A stretch of 64,000 bases of DNA from a virus (taxonomy: Duplodnaviria; Caudoviricetes). The notes under the pieces are model-generated. The model did no database searches. It was not told the origin of the DNA and was given only the letters and a program-made list of their open reading frames with translations. Positions 9,400 through 48,933 of the stretch are shown one piece after another (position 1 is the first letter of the stretch; each line of letters begins with the position of its first letter). The stretch covers positions 11,996 to 75,995 of the IMG/VR virus record IMGVR_UViG_3300014664_000015; one strand, written 5' to 3'. A program made the position numbers and the translations under genes.

Positions 9400-9657
9400 T
9401 TAGCCGCCCTTCCCAACTTTTGGATTTCGGTTCGGAAGGGTACTTTTTCCTTGGCAGTTCGCCTGCCACGCTTTGTTATGCGCCAGGATGTCGCGCTTCG
9501 TCTGGCGGTCTAGCACATCCCAGTCGTGCGCTGTGCCGTAAATGGGTTTAATCCAATCGCAAGCGGTATCCACTACCTCAACCCTTACGGGTCCAGTTGT
9601 CCCGCAGCTCGCGATCAACATCGTCGCCAGGCATATGGTTAACATTCTGCTGTACAT
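9400..9657 (-). CDS. Outer-membrane spanin lipoprotein (Rz1-like)
   Basis: Signal peptide with LIASC lipobox; overlaps inner spanin. Confidence 0.85.
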   Translation of the reverse strand: MYSRMLTICLATMLIASCGTTGPVRVEVVDTACDWIKPIYGTAHDWDVLDRQTKRDILAHNKAWQANCQGKSTLPNRNPKVGKGG

Positions 9658-9847
9658 TGCTGGCCTCTTTCGTTGCTTCTACCCGGCGTTCTGCTACCGT
9701 GGCCGTTGCCGCTGCGTTATCTTCGGTGCGCTGCTGGTCGGCTTTCGCTTCCGCTTTGCTGGAGCCGCGAATATGGCCCAGGCCAAAAGCGCCGACGATA
9801 GCGGAAATCACCAATGCGGCCAGCCCTATTATCGTTTCGATACCCAC
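9578..9847 (-). CDS. Inner-membrane spanin (Rz-like)
   Basis: N-terminal TM helix then coiled coil; GTG start after GAGG. Confidence 0.8.
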   Translation of the reverse strand: MGIETIIGLAALVISAIVGAFGLGHIRGSSKAEAKADQQRTEDNAAATATVAERRVEATKEASNVQQNVNHMPGDDVDRELRDNWTRKG

Positions 9848-9854
9848 ATTCACC

Positions 9855-10484
9855 TCACACCAGAACGGATTTCGCCAGGTTAAACAGCGCGCGGCGTTTA
9901 TCCATACCATTACGTCCACCGTTGATAAGCAGCGTAACGCGCTCAACATCGCCGGAATGAAGCAGGCAACCGCGGGAGGCATAGAACCATGCAGCTGAAC
10001 GCGCAGCATATTCATCCTGTTCAAGCAGCTCCGGGTGGGTAACAAGGTCTAGTCTCAACGCGTGGCCACAACTGCGATAGTTGCTCAGGCCGGTAACCTG
10101 TTTCAGCCCGCGACCGCGATATTTCCAGCCATCACCGGCAACCTGATTGCCAAGGTGTTCTTTTCCCCACTCACCACCGTATACCAGATTGGCGATCGCT
10201 TTCTGGTTTGCCGTTTGCGTTGCCGTTCTGCCAAGTGCGGCGGCCTGCTGTTGCGTGATGCGGTGGCTACCGAACGTCGGTACCAGGTTTTCAACCGCGT
10301 AATTCAGGCTCTCCACCAGCCGGGTAAATCTGGTGCTTTCATGCCCCATCTGGGCAATAAACATCGCCTGATCAAGCGGTGCGGTTATACCGTATTCCTT
10401 CATAGCGGCGTCGATATGCGGAAACCAGCGCGCAGCTAACCCGGCGCTGATACCAGCCGCCTTCTGAAATTGTGCTTTGTCCAT
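9855..10484 (-). CDS. Endolysin, glycoside hydrolase family 19
   Basis: AQMGHES, YRGRGLKQVTG, INGGRNG motifs. Confidence 0.95.
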   Translation of the reverse strand: MDKAQFQKAAGISAGLAARWFPHIDAAMKEYGITAPLDQAMFIAQMGHESTRFTRLVESLNYAVENLVPTFGSHRITQQQAAALGRTATQTANQKAIANLVYGGEWGKEHLGNQVAGDGWKYRGRGLKQVTGLSNYRSCGHALRLDLVTHPELLEQDEYAARSAAWFYASRGCLLHSGDVERVTLLINGGRNGMDKRRALFNLAKSVLV

Positions 10485-10765
10485 TAGTGCCTCAGATGAT
10501 CAACCAGACGTGCAACGTTGCCTTTGACGGCCACCAGCACTGAAAGAAATATGATATTGGCCGCAATGGTGGCCCATGATGAATGCGGGTAAATCCCGCA
10601 CAGATACGCCAGCGGTACAGCGCTGTAAGTGACGGTAATCAGCCAGGCTAAACGCGAAATCCATGGCCGATGCCGCGAATCACCACGGCGATAAAACATC
10701 AGAGTAATCACAACTCCGGCGCAGAGCAGCGCGTTGATAGTTGCTGTTGGGTCATTTAGTACCAC
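10484..10765 (-). CDS. Holin-family membrane protein
   Basis: Three TM segments, directly before endolysin. Confidence 0.8.
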   Translation of the reverse strand: MVLNDPTATINALLCAGVVITLMFYRRGDSRHRPWISRLAWLITVTYSAVPLAYLCGIYPHSSWATIAANIIFLSVLVAVKGNVARLVDHLRH

Positions 10766-11138
10766 CTGAACCTCCCCGGCGCGTTATCAGCGCCACCAGC
10801 GAGCCGATGTCCTGCTTGTTCAGGAACGTAAGGATTTGAACGGCTAACGCAGAAGCGATTACGGCACCGATAGCATCCAGAGGCTTATCGGTGTACCCCG
10901 TCCAGGACGTGAGTTTTGAACCCAACAGCCCCGAACAAAGAATGCCGACGATATACGACACGAAGAAGTATGCCAGGCGACGTAACACACTCAGGTCAGC
11001 CGCTGTCGCTATGTAGAATACGGCGCCAGCAAATGCACCAAAAACGACACCGTAATCAGTTCCGGTCAATAGACCGTAAACACTGGCTCCAGTCAAAGCT
11101 AAACCGGCCAGCCCCGTGCCGGAAAATGGATCGGACAT
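10752..11138 (-). CDS. Putative holin/antiholin membrane protein
   Basis: Multiple TM segments, first gene of lysis cassette. Confidence 0.8.
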   Translation of the reverse strand: MSDPFSGTGLAGLALTGASVYGLLTGTDYGVVFGAFAGAVFYIATAADLSVLRRLAYFFVSYIVGILCSGLLGSKLTSWTGYTDKPLDAIGAVIASALAVQILTFLNKQDIGSLVALITRRGGSGGTK

Positions 11139-29499: not shown

Positions 29500-32400
29500 T
29501 TACCATGTTCCCGTGATTCTCCCGATCTGCACCCTCAACACATTCCTGGAGTCCCGGACACTAATTGTCTGATTGGTTTGTTTCATTGCTCCCTCTCCAG
29601 CTGTGGAGCCGTAGTTTTCAAACGTCCCTGACTTATCCAGTTTCCACCCGACGGAACCAGCCACATAGTTATTTGACTGGAGGTAGTTACCGATCTTCGC
29701 GTTGCTAATGGTGCCGTCCTGGATGAACGTATCCCGGATGAAGGTCTGTCCGTTCTGGATAACGAACGGCAACGATACAGCCCCACCAGCCTGCGTCATC
29801 ACCGCGAAGCGGTCAGCCAGGAACAGCACCTGCGACTGCATGCCCGATGGAGTGTTTTCTACACCGATCCCCATTCCGGCGGCATACTGCTTTCCATTCG
29901 CGTCCACGGCAACCTTGATGCTGTACATCGCCTTCAGGTCACCACTAACGTTTGCTATCGCCTGAGCGTTAGTGCTGATCGCTGAAGTGTGCCCGTTGAT
30001 GGTCGCCGTGATGCCGTTTATCTGCGTGGCCGTGGCCTGCTGATAATTGGAAAACGTCTGGTTCAGGCTGTTAATTGCTGCCTTGTTGCCGTTCACGTCA
30101 GTCTGCACACTCAGCAGCGAACGCGCTGTTGCCTCCCTGTCGCTTGCCATGGCGCTGTCAATGCGATCGATGCCGGCCTTGCTGTCACCGTACTGCGCGC
30201 TGAGTGTCATCCGCTGATTAACCTGCGCCAGCGTACTCGTTATTAGCGCGATAGCGTTATTCTGGATGCCGCCGCTGGCAGTATCGGTTCTTGCTCCCAG
30301 CTCCTCCAGGCGGGATGCCATTGATGAAGTCGTGTCGGTGACAACCTGTCGCAACGTGGTAATATCAGCAGTGTTTTGTGAGCTGGCTTGTTCAGCTGCA
30401 TCTGCCTTACCTGATGCAGCGTCAGCTTTACTCGAAGCCGAATCAGCTTTATCAGAAATGACCTGAGTACTCGCAGTAAGCTGGTCGACAGCTGTCGCCC
30501 TTGCCTGAGCTTCATCTGACAGAGCCTGCCTTACCTCGGTAATTCCCGCCTCGTTCTGCTCAGTTTTTGCCTCAAGACGAGTAACATCCGTGACGCGAGC
30601 CTCCGTCTCAGTGGCGATCACCTCCCGGAGCTGTTCGAAGGTCGCAGAGTTAGCGCCCTGCTGGGCTGTCTGCCGCACGACAACATCAGCAATAGCAAGC
30701 GCGTTGCCGATGATTGCTTCTGCTGTCTGCTTATTCGATCCAACCGCCGCTGCAAGACCATTTGCATTCTCTTTGATTGCATCAGCCAGTTCTGCGAACT
30801 TTTCACTGCTCTCCACCGCGCTCTCGATCAGGTCTTTGAACGTATCAGTCTCTTTAATCTCCTCCAGGATTGCATCGGTGATATCGGATACATCAATGCT
30901 GGCCTGCCCGCGCACAAAGTCTGTGTACCCTGATTCGTTTCCGCTGCGGTCCACCAGCTGCGCGCGGTACCAGAAAATTTGCCCTGCCTTAAGGCCCATC
31001 TGCTGATACTTGCGCTGCGGATAGGGTACGTCTGCCAGCAGCATCGCATCGTCTTCCGTCCCGGTCAGGCTGTACTGAATTTCCGTCTTCAGCGTGTCGT
31101 CGGTGTTCGCCGGGAATCCCCAGTTCAGCTCGATACCGAAAACCACATTATCAGAAGCGATGAAGCCGACCGGTTTCGGCGGATTGCCCACTTTCCCCGT
31201 CAGCGTTTTCTCTTCTGAATAGCCCCATCCGGACGAGATTTCTGCGGCATTGATTGCGCGTACGCGCACCAGGTAGCGCCCGGCATAAATCCCGGGGACG
31301 TCGAATGACGTGGTGGAGCTGCGCGGCACGTTAACCCAGTTCCCATCATTGCGGCGCCATTGCGCTTCATAGGCGATAGCGTTCTGCGCCTGTTCCCAGC
31401 TCACGCGCATCGTTTCGACGCTGATATTTTGCTGCACCACAGAAAACGAGCTGATCACGATGTTCGCAGGCGGCGACTGGTTGCCCGGCGGGATCACGCT
31501 CACCGGCCGCTGGTCAATGATGGCTCCGGTATCGATTCGGGCATATTTATCCGGATCGTGCCATGCACCGGTAATGGTGAAAGTGCCATCATCGTTATCA
31601 GCGACACTCACAACACGATACTGCTGCGCATAGAGTTCGTTTGACTCAACCACCCAGACAGCTTCGGCCTGAGGCGTCTCACTGTACGCGGTGGTGACTG
31701 TGACCGATTCCCCGTTAACCGCCTGAATGGTCCTGCTCTGTGACGCTCCGGAGGGAAGGTTGAGGATAAGGCGATCACCTGCTGCCGCATCAGCTACACG
31801 GTCAAGTTTGATAACGCGACCATTAACGGCGCTGATGCGGCCGCCCATAACCTTTCCGGAAAGCAGCTCGTCTGCCACAGCGATGATATAGCCAGGCTGC
31901 GGTATGTTTCCGTCTAGCCCGACATCGAACGAAACAACGCGATCTTTGTTGTTGGTGAGAATACCCCAGCGCCCCTTTCGGTTCGCTTCTGACTGTCTGG
32001 TACAGCCGATGGCTGTCATTTCCAGCTGATTGAAGCCGTACCGCGCCACCAGCGCCTGCTCGAATACGGGTTCCATCGCGTCAGCGTAGGCGTTACCGGG
32101 ATCGGACCATGAAACTAGCGCTGTAGTGTAGCGGGTTTTCGTGGTGCTGCTTGAATAGGTGAAGCGACCGCCAACAACGTTAGCGCGCGTATAGCTGTAA
32201 TCCACATCACGGGGCATATCGGCCAGAGCAACGATCTGATCGCCACCCCAGTACGTCATGCCACGGAATATGGCCGCAAAATCACGCAGGACTGTATAAG
32301 CGTCGTTTCGGTCCTGGATGTACACGTTGCAGGTATAGCGTGGTTCTGTTCCATCGCCACCCTTACCGTCCGGCACCATCTGATCGCAATACTGGGCGAC

Positions 32401-33333
32401 CTGATAAAGCGTCCATTTATCGATGTTAGCAGCAGTCAAACGGTGACCGAGGCCGAACCGGTCAGAAACAACCAGATCGTAAAATATCCACGCAGGGTTA
32501 TCCGTCCATGCCCACTTAAACGCCCCGGTCCATGTCCCGCTGTAAGAGCGGGTTTCCGGGTCGTAAGTATCAGGAACCCGAATAACGCGGCCACGAGGCT
32601 CACAGGAGATCTGAGGTATAGAACCATTAAACTGGCTGGAGTCGAATTCAATGTACAGCAGCGCGGTATTCGGATATCGCAATTTCGCATCAATCACCTC
32701 AGTGAAGCTCTGTAGCGTCATCGTGTCGCCGATTTTCGCGCTGTTAGCGTCAGCGGTAATTTTGCGCAGTCTGATTGTCCAGGTACTGCCAGCCTGAGGT
32801 AAATCAATACGGTGGCTACGCTCATAACCTGAGGTCGTTTTCCCGGTCACGCTGGTATTGAGGACTGTCTGCCATGTCCCGCCGTCAGTCTGCAAGTCAA
32901 TCGCGTAATTAACCGAGTATCCGACCAGATCGCCATCGTCCTCCTGTTTGAAAAGGGAGGGCCATTGCAGACGCAAACGTACCGCCGAAAGCTGGGTATT
33001 TGTAAAGGTTCGTGTCCATGCTGTAGCGCTCGTTACTTCAGTACCCACCCTAATTTCGTTTTCGGTGCCGGGTATACCCTGAATGTACTTCTGGGCCTGA
33101 GTACCCGAGCGAAATTCCCACGTAACGCCACTGAAGTTTTGGGAGCCGTCGGCGTTCTCCAGCGCCGTTCCGTCCAGGTAGATATCCTTCCCGGTGAGCT
33201 GTCCAGCAAACTCCCCTTCACCAAGCGCAACGAGGATCTTTGCCTTCGCTACAGATTGCAGATCATCAGGCTGTTCGGTAGGAGTTCGGGAGCTGGAGCT
33301 CCCCCCTTTTCGTCCGGTAATTGTTTTAGCCAT
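29500..33333 (-). CDS. Central tail fiber / host specificity protein J
   Basis: 1277 aa; ALGEGE N-terminus, FnIII-like repeats, coiled coil, DUF1983 (AGMGIG...FLADRFAV). Confidence 0.95.
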   Translation of the reverse strand: MAKTITGRKGGSSSSRTPTEQPDDLQSVAKAKILVALGEGEFAGQLTGKDIYLDGTALENADGSQNFSGVTWEFRSGTQAQKYIQGIPGTENEIRVGTEVTSATAWTRTFTNTQLSAVRLRLQWPSLFKQEDDGDLVGYSVNYAIDLQTDGGTWQTVLNTSVTGKTTSGYERSHRIDLPQAGSTWTIRLRKITADANSAKIGDTMTLQSFTEVIDAKLRYPNTALLYIEFDSSQFNGSIPQISCEPRGRVIRVPDTYDPETRSYSGTWTGAFKWAWTDNPAWIFYDLVVSDRFGLGHRLTAANIDKWTLYQVAQYCDQMVPDGKGGDGTEPRYTCNVYIQDRNDAYTVLRDFAAIFRGMTYWGGDQIVALADMPRDVDYSYTRANVVGGRFTYSSSTTKTRYTTALVSWSDPGNAYADAMEPVFEQALVARYGFNQLEMTAIGCTRQSEANRKGRWGILTNNKDRVVSFDVGLDGNIPQPGYIIAVADELLSGKVMGGRISAVNGRVIKLDRVADAAAGDRLILNLPSGASQSRTIQAVNGESVTVTTAYSETPQAEAVWVVESNELYAQQYRVVSVADNDDGTFTITGAWHDPDKYARIDTGAIIDQRPVSVIPPGNQSPPANIVISSFSVVQQNISVETMRVSWEQAQNAIAYEAQWRRNDGNWVNVPRSSTTSFDVPGIYAGRYLVRVRAINAAEISSGWGYSEEKTLTGKVGNPPKPVGFIASDNVVFGIELNWGFPANTDDTLKTEIQYSLTGTEDDAMLLADVPYPQRKYQQMGLKAGQIFWYRAQLVDRSGNESGYTDFVRGQASIDVSDITDAILEEIKETDTFKDLIESAVESSEKFAELADAIKENANGLAAAVGSNKQTAEAIIGNALAIADVVVRQTAQQGANSATFEQLREVIATETEARVTDVTRLEAKTEQNEAGITEVRQALSDEAQARATAVDQLTASTQVISDKADSASSKADAASGKADAAEQASSQNTADITTLRQVVTDTTSSMASRLEELGARTDTASGGIQNNAIALITSTLAQVNQRMTLSAQYGDSKAGIDRIDSAMASDREATARSLLSVQTDVNGNKAAINSLNQTFSNYQQATATQINGITATINGHTSAISTNAQAIANVSGDLKAMYSIKVAVDANGKQYAAGMGIGVENTPSGMQSQVLFLADRFAVMTQAGGAVSLPFVIQNGQTFIRDTFIQDGTISNAKIGNYLQSNNYVAGSVGWKLDKSGTFENYGSTAGEGAMKQTNQTISVRDSRNVLRVQIGRITGTW

Positions 33334-35873: not shown

Positions 35874-36208
35874 GGTTTATAGGTCTGCTCAAAAGTTGCT
35901 GAAAGGTTGAAGAGCCCAGCGCCAAGCGGCGAAGGAGTGTAAGTATCACAGCGATACAACCCCAGTGGTTCAAGCGGTGGGTGCCACTGAAAAGACTTTG
36001 TTCCCTGATGGCGATCGAGAAAGTTTTTAATGGCCCCGATATACGCTTCGGTACCGGTAAACTGTAAATTCCACTTTTGTGAACGCGGATTTAATCCGTC
36101 ACCGGCCACCTGTTCATATCCGTCACCAAATTTTGCGGAGCGCCGGCGGAACGTTACCTCCTGCTCCGCGTTGATGCGTGGGCACCAGCTGAATGTTTCA
36201 AGAGCCAT
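35870..36208 (-). CDS. Minor tail protein M
   Basis: FGDGYEQ...GLN motif. Confidence 0.92.
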   Translation of the reverse strand: MALETFSWCPRINAEQEVTFRRRSAKFGDGYEQVAGDGLNPRSQKWNLQFTGTEAYIGAIKNFLDRHQGTKSFQWHPPLEPLGLYRCDTYTPSPLGAGLFNLSATFEQTYKP

Positions 36209-38667
36209 CAGCGGCCTCCTTTTGCAAGATTCCAGATATCACCGCCAGGGCGAATATCGCGCATCATGTTTTGTTTATATCGTTGATCCACGAACCGCCC
36301 GACTTCAGCGCCAAACTGTTCGAAGCCAGCTGAGCCCTGAGTAGATGTATTGCCGTTTCCGTCAATAGTGATATATACCTGTGGCGCCCCTCCACTGCCT
36401 GGCGTGACGCCGCCATTTCCCACGGCGCGGACAGCCAGTGAACCATCAGACGCGCGGGTAAGAGGCATAATGGCTTCAGGACCCGCCTCTCCCATCAGGC
36501 CGGCACCTTTTGCAAACGCAAACAGCGTCGGTGAACTGACGACAGAGTTACTGTACTGACTGAGATCGGCTGAAGAGTAAACGCCGCCTTTGGCGTTTAA
36601 TTGCAGGTTAGCACCGTAGTTCTGGATTGCTGTTCCGCTACTGGCTGAGGATGAGGCGGCACCGCTAAACAGCGAACCGATAGAGCTGGCGGCGTTCGCG
36701 ATCATCATATTTACCATCACCTGTTCTATGATTTTCAGAACGCTGATACCCCAGTCTTTCCAGCTCGCTTTATTGCCGTTGAGCATCTCGACAATGTTGC
36801 TGCTGATCCCTGAGAGTGCCGTTTTCATGACGTCGGCCGCCTGCATTGCATAGTTCGTGGAATCATCCACCCAGTCGGCAAGTCCGTCACGGGCTCCGGT
36901 TACCCAGTCAGCCTGTAGCGCATCAACTTTCTTGTAGTAATCCTCCTGAACTTCGATCCTTTCGGCCTGCGCATCCTTCAGGGCCTGAGTTTCCCGGTCA
37001 TAAACCGTCTGGCTTATATCACCGGACTGATACTGCTTTTGCAGCTCCCGCTGCTGGTCGAGGAAGTCGCGCTCAATACTCAGGCGTTCCCTGAGCCGCT
37101 CACGCTGCTTATTGCCGATTCCGGCACCCTGCACATCCACGCCCAAATTTGCACGTGCATTCTCGTTTTGTGCCTGCAGATTTGCCACAAACGCCGCCAC
37201 CCTGGCATTTTCTTCATTGGCTTTTTTGACGGCGTTCAGGCGATCCACTTCCTGAGCCAACTGTTGAAGCCGTATTTTTTGCGCGTTGTTAATTCCGGTG
37301 AGCTTTCCCTCCGCCAAATCGAACTGGAGTTTCTGTTGCTCGGTCACCTCCACCGTTTCTTTGCCGGTGGTATCGATGAGCGCAATCTGGCGCAGGTAAC
37401 CCATCTCCATGGATTTGAAAGAGCTTTCCAGTTTTCTTGCGCTGGCATCAGGCGTAACTTTGCCGTTAGTCTCGCCCGGTGGAAGGGAGAATGGTTTCCC
37501 AGTTCCGACAGTAGCAGCACCAAGCGGAAGAATGCCAACAGCAGGTTTTGACAGCCTGTTTCTGGTTTCGATAAGGGTGTTCAGTTCATCGTTGAGTGCT
37601 TTTACACTATCATTCCCACCCGTGAACCAGGCGAACATTGATTTGTCCTGCGAATAAAAACCCTTTCTTCCTTCAAGGTTTTTTTGCAAATAAGCAATGC
37701 GCTCATTTACCTGATCGATATTTTTGAGGTCAATTTTACCGCTCAGAGCGGCAAATCTGTTGCCGGTGCTTGTGGCAAGTTGACCAGCGCCGGCGGCGGC
37801 TTTTACAAGCCATCCAGCAAGCTGTGCAACTTCAGACACCAGATCAGAGATACCCTGCAGGACAGCAGGATCAGTCAAAACATTGTGAAGTTCATCAAGA
37901 GAGTTTTGCAGCTCTCCAAGGTCAACCTTTGCCAGACCTGCGGCAATCTCCATCTTCAGGCCAGCAACCTGAGCCTCCATGTCTTCGAATAGCTGGTTAA
38001 CTTTAACCAGGTCATCAATGGAAGATGGGTCTGGCGCTACCCCATAATCCTTAGCCAGATCAATAAACCGTTTCAGTTTCTCATTATTGTTATCGAACAA
38101 CGGAAGAAGTTTTGAAAGGTCATTGCCCAGGCTTTCAAGTATGGTTGTCTTTTCGGCATTCGTGCCGATCTTGCCAAGTGATTCACCAATTGCCAGGAGC
38201 TGTTTTTCAGGACTTACTTTGGATAATTTCTCAGCGGACAAACCCAGGGAATTAAGGGCATCAACTGCTTCACCCGACTTGTTCAGGACAGCGTCACCTA
38301 TCTTATCGCCAATATCCTTAAAAATATCAGCCATCTGATCGCCGGACACCCCTGCCTTTTCAGCAGCAAACTGCCATGCTAAAAGCTCCTGAGTTGATAT
38401 CCTTAGCGACTTTGCCCAGCGGTCAGTTTCGGTAATCTGCTTGGAAGTGCTTTTCAGTAACTGAAAACCAGCCGCTCCAACACCCAGACTAGCAGTTACG
38501 GCTGCCGCACCAATACCCGCCAGTGCAGCGCTGGCGGATGCTGCATCATCCTGTACCTGTTTGCTCCACTTTGCAGAGGCGCGTTCTGCCTGATTAAGGC
38601 CGGAGACAAAACCGCCCGTTTTTGCAATCAGGTCGATTGTCAGCGTGCCCAGTGATTTGGAAGCCAT
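36208..38667 (-). CDS. Tail tape measure protein
   Basis: 819 aa, helical, AKGG...GEAGPEAIMPL C-terminal motif. Confidence 0.93.
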   Translation of the reverse strand: MASKSLGTLTIDLIAKTGGFVSGLNQAERASAKWSKQVQDDAASASAALAGIGAAAVTASLGVGAAGFQLLKSTSKQITETDRWAKSLRISTQELLAWQFAAEKAGVSGDQMADIFKDIGDKIGDAVLNKSGEAVDALNSLGLSAEKLSKVSPEKQLLAIGESLGKIGTNAEKTTILESLGNDLSKLLPLFDNNNEKLKRFIDLAKDYGVAPDPSSIDDLVKVNQLFEDMEAQVAGLKMEIAAGLAKVDLGELQNSLDELHNVLTDPAVLQGISDLVSEVAQLAGWLVKAAAGAGQLATSTGNRFAALSGKIDLKNIDQVNERIAYLQKNLEGRKGFYSQDKSMFAWFTGGNDSVKALNDELNTLIETRNRLSKPAVGILPLGAATVGTGKPFSLPPGETNGKVTPDASARKLESSFKSMEMGYLRQIALIDTTGKETVEVTEQQKLQFDLAEGKLTGINNAQKIRLQQLAQEVDRLNAVKKANEENARVAAFVANLQAQNENARANLGVDVQGAGIGNKQRERLRERLSIERDFLDQQRELQKQYQSGDISQTVYDRETQALKDAQAERIEVQEDYYKKVDALQADWVTGARDGLADWVDDSTNYAMQAADVMKTALSGISSNIVEMLNGNKASWKDWGISVLKIIEQVMVNMMIANAASSIGSLFSGAASSSASSGTAIQNYGANLQLNAKGGVYSSADLSQYSNSVVSSPTLFAFAKGAGLMGEAGPEAIMPLTRASDGSLAVRAVGNGGVTPGSGGAPQVYITIDGNGNTSTQGSAGFEQFGAEVGRFVDQRYKQNMMRDIRPGGDIWNLAKGGR

Positions 38668-47442: not shown

Positions 47443-47733
47443 TTACCAGATAACCCGACCCTCTTCATCGAACTCGGTCACCGTTCCGCCGTTCTCCATG
47501 CGTTGCTTCACGGAGTCGTGGCAGCGTTTGCATAAACTTTGTAAATTTTCTGGATCGTGAAAGAGAGTTTCATCGCCTTTATGCGGCTTAACGTGGTCCA
47601 CTACAGCCGCCGAAACGATCTGATTACGCTTGAGGTGAAACTCGCACAACGGCTGCTGTTGCAGCTGGTGATGGCGCAGGCGGTACCATCGCTTCGTGTT
47701 GTAGAGGTTATGCCAGGGGGAGTTTGATGCCAT
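47443..47733 (-). CDS. Terminase-associated HNH endonuclease
   Basis: PLCEFH...VDHVKPH...NLQSLCKRCHD. Confidence 0.92.
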   Translation of the reverse strand: MASNSPWHNLYNTKRWYRLRHHQLQQQPLCEFHLKRNQIVSAAVVDHVKPHKGDETLFHDPENLQSLCKRCHDSVKQRMENGGTVTEFDEEGRVIW

Positions 47734-47744
47734 ACACTGAATCC

Positions 47745-48581
47745 TCAGGGACGATACAGCAGACCACCTGGCTTCAGCGCGTTGCGGATAGCATCGCTTG
47801 CGGCTTGTTCAATAGCCTGCTGCGTGGTGACAAGTGCCGAAGCCTGAGCATCCTGTGACGCCTGCAGCGCCTTGAACACATCGCTTTCGCGTATGGCATC
47901 AATGACAGCTTCGCGCATATCGTCAGAGAGGCGGGTCTTTACTTCAGCGGCATGGAGTGCGCTTTTGATTGTGCTCAGTGCCGCGCCAATAACTGCAAAC
48001 CGATCCGCTTTAAACTCAACCTGCTGTTGACCATCTTCAACAGCAACACCCATTCCAGCTACGTGAACGACGCCAGCGTCATCAGTGTGGCCTTTTATAC
48101 TCCAGGCGGCTTTTGCTGATTCATCGGAATCCGGACCGCTCATTAATCTAGGGTCAGACTCACCCAGGTAGTTGTGAATAAAGTTAGCGGTATTGATAGT
48201 TACTGTACCCAGCTGGCCGTAATTGTAGGTTTCGTCCAGAAGGTCTCTGAAGGCAGAGGTGTCAGGTAAACTTTTCAAGATTTCGTCCACCAGCTTTTGT
48301 TCTGCTGGAGGGTTAATTCGCCCCACGCGCATTCTGACCGAACCGTCCTCACCATAGGCTGTTAGCTCACCGCCGGACATTTCCACACGTCCGCGTGTTT
48401 TGGTGCGCATATCCTTCACGCGCAGCTGGCCGGGAAAATATTCAGGGTAACCACTCACTTTTGTACGGCGGCCTTTGAGGTCGTACTCAGCAGAGCCAGC
48501 GGGGCTTTTGATGATCATGCCATGGTCGGTCTGAACGATACGTAGGCCAAGCATCGCCTGCTGTAGCGATAAGTGTTTCAT
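47745..48581 (-). CDS. Mosaic protein containing DUF1983/J-like segments
   Basis: WSIKG...AGMGVAVE...FKADRFAV matches the J C-terminal region in this window. Confidence 0.75.
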   Translation of the reverse strand: MKHLSLQQAMLGLRIVQTDHGMIIKSPAGSAEYDLKGRRTKVSGYPEYFPGQLRVKDMRTKTRGRVEMSGGELTAYGEDGSVRMRVGRINPPAEQKLVDEILKSLPDTSAFRDLLDETYNYGQLGTVTINTANFIHNYLGESDPRLMSGPDSDESAKAAWSIKGHTDDAGVVHVAGMGVAVEDGQQQVEFKADRFAVIGAALSTIKSALHAAEVKTRLSDDMREAVIDAIRESDVFKALQASQDAQASALVTTQQAIEQAASDAIRNALKPGGLLYRP

Positions 48582-48693
48582 TCGGGTTTCCTTTTAGATG
48601 TGAGCCTGTCGCACGGCAATGCCGCCGAAAGTTAACGGTCTGCCCAGGCTCGCAGCTGAAAGACTTTCTTTGATGTGCGCGTGCGATGCGCAT

Positions 48694-48717
48694 AAAAAAG
48701 CCCCGCTATTGCGAGGC
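48694..48717 (-). terminator. Terminator after spanins
   Basis: AGCCTCGC/GCGGGGCT plus T6. Confidence 0.75.
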
Positions 48718-48933
48718 TCTGGTTTGTTTCTGGCAGTTCGCCTGCCACGCTTTGTTATGCGCCAGGATGTCTTTCTTCGTCTGGCGGTCCATAACGTCGA
48801 TATCGTGTTCAGTCAGGTAGATCGGCTTTACCCAGTCACAGGCGGTATCAACCACCACCGGGACGCTTCCACGTGTCACGCAGCTCGCGATCAACATCGT
48901 TATCAGGCAAGTGGTTAACAGTCTGCTGTACAT
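48706..48933 (-). CDS. Outer-membrane spanin lipoprotein
   Basis: LIASC lipobox; homolog of 9400-9657. Confidence 0.85.
   Translation of the reverse strand: MYSRLLTTCLITMLIASCVTRGSVPVVVDTACDWVKPIYLTEHDIDVMDRQTKKDILAHNKAWQANCQKQTRASQ

What the first reader, a model, noticed from the sequence alone, without database searches (positions are those of the whole stretch)
47745..48581. Scrambled mini tail-tip protein: J and tape-measure segments in permuted order
Seen by aligning to proteins in this window: ELTAYGEDGSVRMRVGRI resembles the J C-terminus TISVRDSRNVLRVQIGRI; LVDEILKSLPDTSAFRDLLD and MREAVIDAIRESDVFKAL both resemble J ITDAILEEIKETDTFKDLIE (7/20 and 7/18 identities); TINTANFIHNYL resembles J TISNAKIGNYL; WSIKG..AGMGVAVE..QVEFKADRFAV resembles J YSIKV..AGMGIGVE..QVLFLADRFAV; the tail DAIRNALKPGGLLY resembles the tape-measure end MRDIRPGGDIW. 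The order differs from J, and the gene lies far from the tail module, behind the spanin terminator. Known: tail-assembly interference systems (Tai, Tab) and their lytic-phase counter-defences exist. Inference: a multi-epitope decoy that either poisons rival tail-tip assembly or absorbs host or prophage sensors that recognise tail proteins.
Basis: partly seen in the sequence, partly recalled or inferred. Interest (0 to 1): 0.72.

Follow-up and report, generated by a model that had tools for sequence, protein, structure and literature searches.

The report
Anti-Tai-like tail-mimic phage protein
This late prophage gene joins a head domain related to a known anti-defence protein (AtiEcA of phage phi80) to shuffled pieces of the phage's own tail-tip fibre and a tape-measure-like tail end, so it probably protects tail assembly from bacterial defences, though no experiment has tested this.

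Summary
The ORF (window 47745-48581, minus strand, 278 aa) is real. It belongs to a widespread, unnamed family of more than 450 proteins (PHROGs 29765 and 13555).

The observation mostly holds:
- **J similarity:** the DUF1983 piece matches this phage's J (E 3e-7). The other J-like pieces are weak in this protein but significant across the family, where their order is reversed relative to J.
- **Tape-measure resemblance:** it is a short C-terminal motif (helix, then PGG, two hydrophobic residues and an aromatic one). It is marginal here (p about 1e-3) and clearer in relatives.

New results:
- **Ati-like head:** residues 13-61 align colinearly with AtiEcA. This is the 76-aa phi80 protein shown experimentally to neutralise Tai, a tail-assembly-inhibition defence that targets the C-terminal part of J.
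- **Location:** the gene sits in the same slot as Tai and Ati, between the lysis and packaging genes. It lies on the late strand, behind a terminator and with no promoter-like site.
- **Leader:** a conserved leader of about 110 nt, not in Rfam, precedes the gene and is predicted to hide the ribosome-binding site.

Best reading (about 0.4): a lytic-phase counter-defence that uses tail-like modules as bait or anchor. No tai gene lies nearby, and phi80's N-domain-less relative (orf66) gave no reported phenotype when deleted. An earlier first-reader note in this scan covers this same stretch. Novelty: a new variant of a known kind.

The parts
48694..48718 (-). Intrinsic terminator after Rz1. The stem is AGCCTCGC / GCGGGGCT, the loop AATA contains part of the Rz1 stop codon, and a T-run follows.
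   Evidence: Read from the sequence. Rfam terminator-containing models align to this hairpin. The simple terminator scan did not list it.
48582..48693 (-). Conserved leader of about 110 nt, upstream of the ORF. The predicted structure has a long stem (GUGAGCCUG / CAGGCUCAC) and inner hairpins. UCUUU pairs with the AAAGG of the Shine-Dalgarno sequence.
   Evidence: 75 invariant columns across 11 loci, including phi80 gp49 and HK639 gp13. RNAalifold gives 30 pairs and one compensatory pair. No Rfam family matches. The core occurs in at least 119 viral contigs.
48390..48581 (-). N-terminal domain, residues 1-64: a short helix plus a four-stranded beta meander, ending in the EYFP motif. It is AtiEcA-like.
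   Evidence: AF2 pLDDT is 86 when folded alone. AtiEcA residues 21-71 align colinearly with family residues 13-61, and the top 24 phmmer hits among about 16,900 ORFs are all family members. AtiEcA against the HK639 gp13 N-terminus gives E 5e-6.
48306..48389 (-). Segment N2, residues 65-92 (ELTAYGEDGSVRMRVGRI): a degenerate copy of the J C-terminal strand motif.
   Evidence: Not significant in this protein. The same columns in P0037, P0040, P0043, P0050, P0066 and P0067 match J 1244-1273 at E 8e-4 to 3e-3.
48222..48305 (-). Helix cassette 1, residues 93-120 (LVDEILKSLPDTSAFRDLLD). It resembles the start of J's helical shaft (J 817-837).
   Evidence: The equivalent cassette in P0016 matches J 818-837 at E 0.005. 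The helix1 module HMM finds phi80 gp49 at E 9e-11.
48132..48221 (-). Residues 121-150: a degenerate 'GQVFI.DA.I..AKIG' fibre cassette plus a linker.
   Evidence: It aligns in A1 with relatives whose cassette matches J 1189-1227 (E down to 4e-7). It is not significant in this protein.
47967..48131 (-). Partial DUF1983 / Phage_Tail_Tip cassette, residues 151-205.
   Evidence: Pfam E 7.8e-7. BLASTP to J 1134-1187 gives E 3e-7. The module HMM reaches J at E 2e-13.
47847..47945 (-). Helix cassette 2, residues 213-245 (LSDDMREAVIDAIRESDVFKAL). It is a conserved family signature and resembles J 817-838.
   Evidence: BLASTP E 0.013. Columns are nearly invariant in A1. AF2 predicts a helix with pLDDT 72-81.
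47748..47846 (-). C-terminal helix and tail, residues 246-278 (...DAIRNALKPGGLLYRP). The motif resembles the end of lambda-like tape-measure proteins.
   Evidence: N267, G272 and G273 are invariant. The anchored PSSM gives p about 1e-3 and hhalign P 8e-4. TMP ends were compared.
47443..47733 (-). HNH endonuclease (PF01844), the next gene downstream. It is followed by a 69-aa ORF, terS, terL and portal.
29500..33333 (-). Central tail fibre J (1277 aa) of the same prophage, the source type of the copied cassettes.
   Evidence: PF24801 and PF09327 hits. PDB relatives are F2-pyocin fibre and lambda J.
36208..38667 (-). Tape-measure protein (819 aa), ending ...MMRDIRPGGDIWNLAKGGR.

Best explanation
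The ORF is a late-expressed accessory (moron-type) gene of an HK97-head, lambda-tail prophage. It belongs to a large modular family with three kinds of module:
- a variable N-terminal module, here a domain related to the phi80 anti-Tai protein AtiEcA;
- a shuffled set of short cassettes copied from the central straight fibre of J (shaft-start helix, DUF1983 strands, C-terminal strands);
- a constant C-terminal helix ending in a PGG-hydrophobic-aromatic tail, like the end of lambda-type tape-measure proteins.

Most likely it is a lytic-phase counter-defence. It would be made together with the tail proteins, and its Ati-like head would bind a Tai-type tail-assembly inhibitor. The J-like and tape-measure-like parts would act as bait, or would hold the protein at the assembling tail tip, so that J can trimerise and tails can form.

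Shown here: the family, its modules, the location, the leader, and the remote homology to AtiEcA. Inferred: binding to a defence protein, the decoy or anchoring role, and trimerisation.
For: - **Homology to AtiEcA.** phi80 orf64 is gp51, 76 aa; the gene order and identities expressed as n/76 in Table S5 fix this assignment. The N-domain HMM scores AtiEcA at 7.1 bits, reached by 3 of 5000 shuffles. AtiEcA against the HK639 gp13 N-terminus gives 44% identity over 36 aa, E 5e-6. After the self hit, the top 24 phmmer hits among about 16,900 ORFs are all family members, aligned colinearly.
- **Known biology (PMC11364771).** Tai genes lie mostly upstream of the packaging module. Escape mutations lie in the C-terminal region of J. 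Ati is made only in the lytic cycle, and AtiSalB binds TaiSalB.
- **Same slot, late strand.** The order lysis cassette, this gene, optional glycosyltransferase, HNH, terS, terL holds in the loci that extend far enough. There is a terminator upstream and no promoter-like site between Rz1 and the ORF.
- **J-derived cassettes.**
- **A second J mimic at the atiEcA position.** In four leader loci with a TaiEcA-like gene, the 111-aa ORF at that position begins with a 26-aa copy of the extreme C-terminus of an AsXd-1-type J (50% identity, E 2e-5).
- **Arms-race pattern.** The middle is extremely mosaic between conserved ends.
- **Not essential in phi80.** The authors call the deleted regions, which include orf62-66, non-essential, and report no phenotype for the single orf66 deletion.
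Against: - No tai-like gene is found in the 76-kb contig or next to this gene (tblastn E below 1). Only 4 of 119 leader loci carry one.
- The homology to AtiEcA is remote; single E-values range from 0.003 to 0.2.
- In phi80 the counter-defence activity maps to orf64 alone. Deleting orf66, the family member without the N-domain, gave no reported effect, so the J-like and TMP-like parts have no demonstrated anti-Tai role.
- The J-like cassettes are only about 45% identical to any J and do not track the phage's own J. That is weak for precise mimicry.
- Many family members lack the Ati-like domain altogether.
- No expression, binding or structural evidence for a complex was obtained.
Confidence: 0.4

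Rival explanations
1. It is a non-essential virion or tail-assembly accessory. A small trimeric fibre-like protein would use its tape-measure-like C-terminus to dock on the gpI-type plug in the tip lumen, or would attach to the tail through its N-domain. It would modulate assembly, stability or adsorption.
For: - It is co-transcribed with the structural genes.
- It has J fibre cassettes and a DUF1983 segment.
- It has a long C-terminal helix typical of coiled coils.
- The lambda gpH C-terminal helix binds the gpI trimer (PMC10721106, PMC12617516), and the family's C-end resembles TMP ends.
- In HK639 the family gene sits inside the tail module, between the major tail protein and the next tail-module gene upstream of the tape measure.
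Against: - The phi80 region containing the family member is described as non-essential.
- The N-domain never occurs on long fibre proteins: 72 clusters among 1.84 billion representatives, all short apart from one weak 913-aa repeat-protein hit (E 1.4e-4).
- The conserved end is the C-terminus and the variable part is the N-terminus and middle, the opposite of receptor-binding fibres.
- The slot is filled by unrelated genes in many relatives.
- The gpI site is already occupied by three TMP C-termini in lambda.
Confidence: 0.2
2. It is an inter-phage weapon. The protein would co-assemble with, or cap, the J, gpI or tape-measure sites of co-infecting or co-resident lambda-like phages and so poison their tail tips, like Tai or Tab but by subunit mimicry.
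For: - The J trimerisation-region cassettes and the TMP-like end could form dead-end complexes.
- It lies in a known immunity hotspot (PMC11364771).
- Its mosaic diversity fits an arms race.
Against: - It lies on the late strand behind a terminator with no promoter-like site, so it is probably silent in lysogens and made alongside the phage's own J and TMP, which it resembles as much as any other J.
- It has no similarity to TaiEcA.
- Its N-domain is related to the anti-defence protein, not to the defence protein.
Confidence: 0.12
3. It is a moron whose function is unrelated to tails. The fibre-derived cassettes would serve only as a trimeric scaffold. The real activity could be linked to the 485-aa glycosyltransferase that often follows the gene, or to another host-directed role.
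For: - A glycosyltransferase (phrog_1579) follows the family gene in 6 of the 11 related loci with usable context.
- In 13 viral contigs the glycosyltransferase sits directly behind the same leader.
- The leader drives many unrelated small ORFs.
- No fold match was found for the N-domain.
Against: - This window has no glycosyltransferase at the locus.
- Three independent tail-related signals in one protein (AtiEcA-like head, J cassettes, TMP-like end) are hard to put down to coincidence.
Confidence: 0.2
4. It is a decaying fragment of a tail-fibre gene with no function.
For: The DUF1983 match is partial (profile 11-93 of 139), and several cassettes are degenerate in this protein.
Against: - More than 450 intact homologues share invariant residues at both ends.
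- The exact protein is seen on 28 contigs.
- The leader and the genomic slot are conserved.
- The N-domain folds confidently.
Confidence: 0.03

Closest known systems
AtiEcA (phi80 orf64; NC_021190 gp51, 'putative Fur-regulated protein ORF x171.8'), the anti-Tai counter-defence (He et al. 2024, PMC11364771)
   Same: It aligns colinearly, though remotely, with residues 13-61 of this protein. Both lie in the late operon between the lysis and packaging genes. Both are co-oriented with the late genes and so are probably lytic-phase only.
   Different: AtiEcA is 76 aa and consists of this domain alone. It sits next to a divergently transcribed tai gene and upstream of the conserved leader. The window protein is 278 aa, carries J-like and TMP-like modules, sits downstream of the leader, and has no tai neighbour. 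Pairwise identity is low (about 30%).
phi80 gp49 (orf66, 'ORF x171.28; similar to N15 gp59'), HK639 gp13, and the post-lysis ORFs of phages AsXd-1, Fraca and CharmingMan (PHROGs 29765, 13555, 17079)
   Same: They are members of the same family. They share the leader, the helix and DUF1983 cassettes, and a C-terminal ...PGG-hydrophobic-aromatic end.
   Different: phi80 gp49 lacks the Ati-like domain and starts with a different N-module. HK639 gp13 lies inside the tail module. None of them has an assigned function.
Central tail fibre / tip attachment protein J (lambda gpJ; F2-pyocin fibre, PDB 25vf; PF09327)
   Same: It shares short cassettes from the start of the helical shaft, from the DUF1983 region and from the C-terminal strands. 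The DUF1983 segment is 48% identical over 54 aligned positions.
   Different: It has no hub or FNIII-A domains and no long shaft, it is only 278 aa, the order of the cassettes is reversed, and it lies outside the tail module.
C-terminal end of lambda-type tape-measure proteins (lambda gpH 818-849, which binds the gpI trimer; F2-pyocin TMP, PDB 25vf_5)
   Same: A helix followed by a basic residue, (P)GG, two hydrophobic residues and an aromatic one, within 8-13 residues of the C-terminus.
   Different: Only about 15-25 residues are comparable. Statistical support is marginal for this protein, and there is no Tape_meas_lam_C domain.
Tai and Tab tail-assembly inhibitors
   Same: The same genomic hotspot (for Tai) and the same pathway, lambda-type tail-tip assembly.
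   Different: There is no sequence similarity to TaiEcA. In phi80, tai is divergent and expressed in the lysogen, whereas this gene is on the late strand behind a terminator.

Membership tests
Pfam PF09327 Phage_Tail_Tip (DUF1983) | A match to the profile above the gathering score. | tested here: met
   29.4 bits against a cut-off of 22, E 7.8e-7. Only profile positions 11-93 of 139 are covered.
Central tail fibre J (tip attachment protein) | N-terminal hub and FNIII-A domains (PF24801), a length of about 1100-1300 aa, and a position after the I-type gene in the tail module. | tested here: not met
   There is no PF24801 hit and the protein is 278 aa. It lies between the lysis and packaging genes. 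The true J is at 29500-33333.
Ati (anti-Tai counter-defence, AtiEcA type) | Sequence homology to AtiEcA (the authors used PSI-BLAST at E below 0.05). | tested here: met
   The homology is remote. The N-domain HMM scores AtiEcA at 7.1 bits, reached by 3 of 5000 shuffles. AtiEcA against HK639 gp13 gives E 5e-6. The top 24 phmmer hits are all family members and align colinearly. This protein against AtiEcA directly gives 32% identity over 44 aa, E 0.035.
Ati (anti-Tai counter-defence, AtiEcA type) | Encoded in the Q-dependent late operon, upstream of the packaging module. | tested here: met
   It shares the strand of the lysis and terminase genes, lies between Rz1 and HNH/terS, and has no promoter-like site.
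Ati (anti-Tai counter-defence, AtiEcA type) | Paired with an adjacent, divergently transcribed tai gene (a noncontiguous operon). | tested here: not met
   No TaiEcA-like ORF is found in the 76-kb contig. The interval from Rz1 to HNH is filled by the leader and this ORF.
Ati (anti-Tai counter-defence, AtiEcA type) | Binds its cognate Tai and restores tail formation. | not testable with these tools
   This needs two-hybrid tests, plating and electron microscopy.
Tai (tail assembly inhibition) | Homology to Tai proteins and expression in the lysogen. | tested here: not met
   There is no similarity to TaiEcA. The gene is on the late strand behind a terminator, with no promoter-like site.
Lambda-type tape-measure protein | A Tape_meas_lam_C domain and a long helical body, plus the C-terminal gpI-binding helix and tail. 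| tested here: inconclusive
   There is no TMP domain. Only the C-terminal motif is comparable: PSSM p about 1e-3, hhalign P 8e-4 with probability 24%.
PHROG 29765 / 13555 (unknown function) | A match to the profile. | tested here: met
   E 5.7e-33 and 6.1e-15, mostly over the C-terminal half.

The most novel reading that the evidence does not exclude
The family would be a new class of modular structural-mimic anti-defence proteins. A variable head that binds a defence protein (AtiEcA-like in this window) is fused to trimerising cassettes copied from the J fibre and to a tape-measure-like end. Together they would form a pseudo tail tip that soaks up, or shields against, defences aimed at tail-tip assembly, such as Tai-type inhibitors and possibly ubiquitin-like tagging of the central fibre. 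A dedicated structured leader RNA would control its translation.
Probability: 0.3. Interest if true: 0.8.

Novelty: new variant of a known kind. Interest (0 to 1): 0.6.

Why it matters
Tai-type defences that leave phages tailless were described only in 2024, and only five Ati counter-defence genes were then recognised.

If the link found here holds, Ati-like domains occur in hundreds of enterobacterial prophage proteins. Many are fused to copies of J, the protein that Tai targets. That would expose a large, rapidly shuffling anti-defence repertoire and suggest a mechanism, mimicry of the tail tip.

It would also assign a function to a common 'DUF1983 domain-containing / hypothetical' prophage gene and to phi80 orf66, N15 gp59 and HK639 gp13.

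The conserved leader is a separate lead: an undescribed cis-regulatory RNA that controls the accessory-gene slot after the lysis genes.

Tried and rejected
- **Trimer prediction.** Complex prediction with three copies of the protein gave no verdict (score 0.21 against a mark of 0.42). That used the only complex job, so docking the C-end on the gpI-like protein could not be tried.
- **Whole-protein AF2.** Mean pLDDT was 53 and the middle was unstructured. Its fold search returned only generic coiled coils for the C-terminal helix.
- **N-domain fold.** It folded well alone (pLDDT 86), but no PDB chain scored above Z 3.7, and the hits were WD40-blade-like meanders.
- **Direct PDB sequence search** with the protein found nothing.
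- **ESM Atlas** gave only low-score leads.
- **BLASTP and local HMM searches** of the family C-end against the tape measure found nothing.
- **AtiEcA searches.** Longer proteins: none found. The phage collection: only phi80 itself.
- **Own-J preference.** A 6x6 matrix showed no tendency for family proteins to match their own phage's J better.
- **Rfam** has no family for the leader.
- **RNA-seq.** Only assembled contigs of a mosaic relative, plus a few reads on the spanin/endolysin side, could be laid. They give no usable evidence of expression.
- **Literature searches** for AsXd-1 and for N15 gp59 gave nothing on this gene.
Full report
**What is there.** Window 47745-48581 (minus strand) is a 278-aa ORF. 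Reading along the minus strand, the order is: two holin-like ORFs, endolysin, Rz/Rz1, this ORF, an HNH endonuclease, a 69-aa ORF, terS, terL and portal. This is the late operon of a prophage with an HK97-like packaging and head module and a lambda-like tail. The tail has J at 29500-33333 and the tape measure at 36208-38667. The Rz1 stop codon lies in the loop of an intrinsic terminator (48694-18718 read as 48694-48718). A 112-nt leader follows, and then the start codon. A consensus scan finds no promoter-like site between Rz1 and the ORF. Expression therefore probably depends on Q-antiterminated late transcription.

**Checking the observation.**
- The DUF1983 resemblance is solid. Pfam PF09327 gives E 7.8e-7 over profile positions 11-93 of 139. 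BLASTP of residues 157-203 against J 1134-1187 gives 48% identity and E 3e-7. A family module HMM reaches J at E 2e-13.
- The helix motif at residues 221-239 matches J 817-835 at E 0.013.
- The remaining pieces are not significant in this protein, and BLASTP finds nothing in the tape measure.
- The wider family changes the picture. Of 181 relatives, 129 have HSPs with E below 0.01 to this window's J. Apart from one isolated match, these fall in two stretches: J 694-909 (last FNIII domain plus the start of the helical shaft) and J 1056-1273 (DUF1983 plus the C-terminal strands).
- Within the small proteins the order is reversed relative to J: 1244-1273, then 1189-1227, then 1130-1178, then 817-857.
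'J segments in permuted order' is therefore correct for the family and weakly visible in this member.

**The tape-measure end.**
- The family ends in a conserved helix followed by ...DAIRNALKPGGLLY or close variants. N267, G272 and G273 are invariant.
- The window's tape measure ends ...MMRDIRPGGDIWNLAKGGR. More than 7000 tape-measure proteins match the query's last 130 residues, and the listed best hits all end in a PGG-containing tail of this type.
- The F2-pyocin tape measure ends ...AQELRPGGLVWRMVNG, and lambda gpH ends ...MRDGGLFSGGGR.
- Some family members are very close to the tape-measure form. For example...NELRPGGSIFSAMKG compares with ...RDIRPGGDIWNAMKG.
- An anchored PSSM built from tape-measure ends gives p about 1e-3 for this protein. 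The best relatives reach 14 bits, above the maximum of 200,000 random tails. hhalign gives P 8e-4 at 24% probability.
- In lambda, gpH residues 818-849 form a three-helix bundle seated on the gpI trimer inside the tip (PMC10721106, PMC12617516).
- The motif is real for the family and marginal for this protein. Its meaning is inferred.

**The family.**
- More than 450 proteins match, from Enterobacter, Citrobacter, Salmonella, Escherichia, Klebsiella, Atlantibacter and others. Where named at all they are called 'DUF1983 domain-containing' or hypothetical. They fall in PHROGs 29765 and 13555, both of unknown function.
- The N-terminal 60 residues and the C-terminal 65 or so are conserved. The middle is a mosaic of short cassettes.
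- The N-domain is found only at the start of short proteins: 72 clusters among 1.84 billion representatives, apart from one weak hit to a 913-aa repeat protein.
- It folds confidently as a short helix plus a four-stranded meander (pLDDT 86). No structural relative scored above Z 3.7.
- Synteny is conserved: lysis cassette, family gene, an optional 485-aa glycosyltransferase (phrog_1579, in 6 of 11 related loci), HNH, terS, terL.
- In HK639 the gene (gp13) sits instead between the major tail protein and the next tail-module gene upstream of the tape measure, flanked by annotated terminators.

**Link to Tai and Ati.** He et al. 2024 (PMC11364771) described the following:
- Tai is a defence carried by prophages, PICIs and P4-like satellites that blocks tail assembly.
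- Its genes lie mostly upstream of the packaging module.
- Escape mutations lie in the C-terminal region of J.
- phi80 protects itself with AtiEcA (orf64), which is made only in the lytic cycle.
- AtiSalB binds TaiSalB.

The phi80 record lists, after Rz/Rz1: rha, a divergent 204-aa gene, a 76-aa 'Fur-regulated protein ORF x171.8', a minus-strand ORF, and 'ORF x171.28, similar to N15 gp59'. The gene order fixes the assignments, as do the stated 26.1 kDa for tagged TaiEcA and the Table S5 identities, which are multiples of 1/76. On that basis orf63 is the 204-aa gene, orf64 (AtiEcA) is the 76-aa protein, and orf66 is ORF x171.28.

- ORF x171.28 is a family member without the N-domain. The family HMM gives E 6e-6, the helix module E 9e-11, and PF09327 E 6e-5. 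It is 47% identical to the Fraca protein and ends ...MECFPGGVIWQQCRR.
- AtiEcA matches the family's N-domain. Against the N-terminus of HK639 gp13 it gives 44% identity over 36 aa, E 5e-6. Against the N-domain HMM it scores 7.1 bits, reached by 3 of 5000 shuffles.
- In a phmmer search of about 16,900 ORFs, the 24 best hits after AtiEcA itself are all family proteins. AtiEcA residues 21-71 align to family residues 13-61.

**Further context.**
- No TaiEcA-like gene is present in this contig.
- Among 119 viral contigs that carry the leader, four have a divergent TaiEcA-like gene about 500 nt upstream of it.
- In those four, the ORF at the atiEcA position (111 aa; L075 6985-7317, minus strand) starts with a 26-aa copy of the extreme C-terminus of an AsXd-1-type J (50% identity, E 2e-5). 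This is a second, independent case of a J mimic placed beside Tai.
- Family proteins show no preference for their own phage's J. Identity is about 45% to all six J proteins tested. The cassettes are therefore old paralogues, not recent copies.

**The leader.**
- The 112 nt before the start codon have 75 invariant columns across 11 loci. These include phi80 (before gp49, not before atiEcA) and HK639 gp13.
- RNAalifold predicts a long stem, inner hairpins, and pairing of UCUUU with the AAAGG of the ribosome-binding site. There is one compensatory pair.
- Indels rule out a coding reading.
- The phi80 minus-strand 'gp50' overlaps this element and is probably an annotation artefact.
- Rfam has no match.
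- The leader core occurs in at least 119 viral contigs. There it precedes family genes with several alternative N-modules, the glycosyltransferase, or unrelated small ORFs. It is a general cassette of this accessory-gene slot.

**Interpretation.**
- The best-supported reading (about 0.4) is a lytic-phase counter-defence of the Ati type, extended by tail-derived modules that could act as bait or as an anchor at the assembling tip.
- Against it: no neighbouring tai gene, only remote homology to AtiEcA, no reported phenotype for phi80 orf66, and no binding evidence.
- The rivals are a non-essential tail accessory (0.2), an unrelated moron function, perhaps linked to the glycosyltransferase (0.2), an inter-phage poison (0.12), and a dead fragment (0.03).
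- The structure-based tests that were possible were uninformative. Public RNA data gave no usable evidence of expression.

**Verdict.** The finding is a new variant of a known kind, an Ati-like protein fused to tail mimics. It is of moderate to high interest and can be tested with standard phage plating assays.

Noticed in passing
window 48582-48693 (minus strand); also L001-L012, L014 and L023-L141: A highly conserved leader of about 110 nt, probably a structured RNA that sequesters the Shine-Dalgarno sequence. It is not in Rfam. It precedes the first gene of the post-lysis accessory slot in at least 119 viral contigs, whatever that gene is: a family protein, the 485-aa glycosyltransferase, or other small ORFs.
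   Followed up: partly
L075 6985-7317 (minus strand); also L050, L083, L024, L108, L071, L097: A 111-aa ORF lies between a divergent TaiEcA-like gene and the leader, at the position atiEcA holds in phi80. It begins with a 26-aa copy of the extreme C-terminus of an AsXd-1-type J (50% identity, E 2e-5). It is a candidate alternative anti-Tai protein acting by J mimicry.
   Followed up: partly
L014 5230-5529 (phi80 gp50, minus strand): This annotated 99-aa ORF overlaps the conserved leader on the opposite strand. Its apparent 'homologues' in other loci are simply the leader DNA, in varying frames, so the ORF is probably spurious.
   Followed up: partly
L001 6144-7601, L002 4955-6412, L004 4816-6312, and L006, L010, L012: A conserved 485-aa GT2-type glycosyltransferase (phrog_1579) follows the family gene in 6 of 11 related loci. 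In 13 viral contigs it sits directly behind the leader. Its substrate is unknown, and it is absent from this window's locus.
   Followed up: partly
L014 4961-6081 (phi80): phi80 carries the two halves of the family architecture as separate genes. AtiEcA (N-domain type, 76 aa) lies upstream of the leader. gp49/orf66 (middle plus C-end, 242 aa) lies downstream of it.
   Followed up: yes
window 47936-48587 and 48697-48730, from RNA-run X1 contigs: A relative in 'organism A' shares the HNH gene, the C-terminal third of this ORF and the leader at about 99% identity. It replaces the N-terminal two thirds (711 nt in place of 650) and has about 1.1 kb inserted between the Rz1 terminator and the leader. 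This is a direct example of the mosaicism.
   Followed up: no
window 9442-11135 (minus strand): A second lysis cassette (holin-like ORFs, endolysin 92% identical, Rz/Rz1 76% identical) belongs to another prophage in the window.
   Followed up: no
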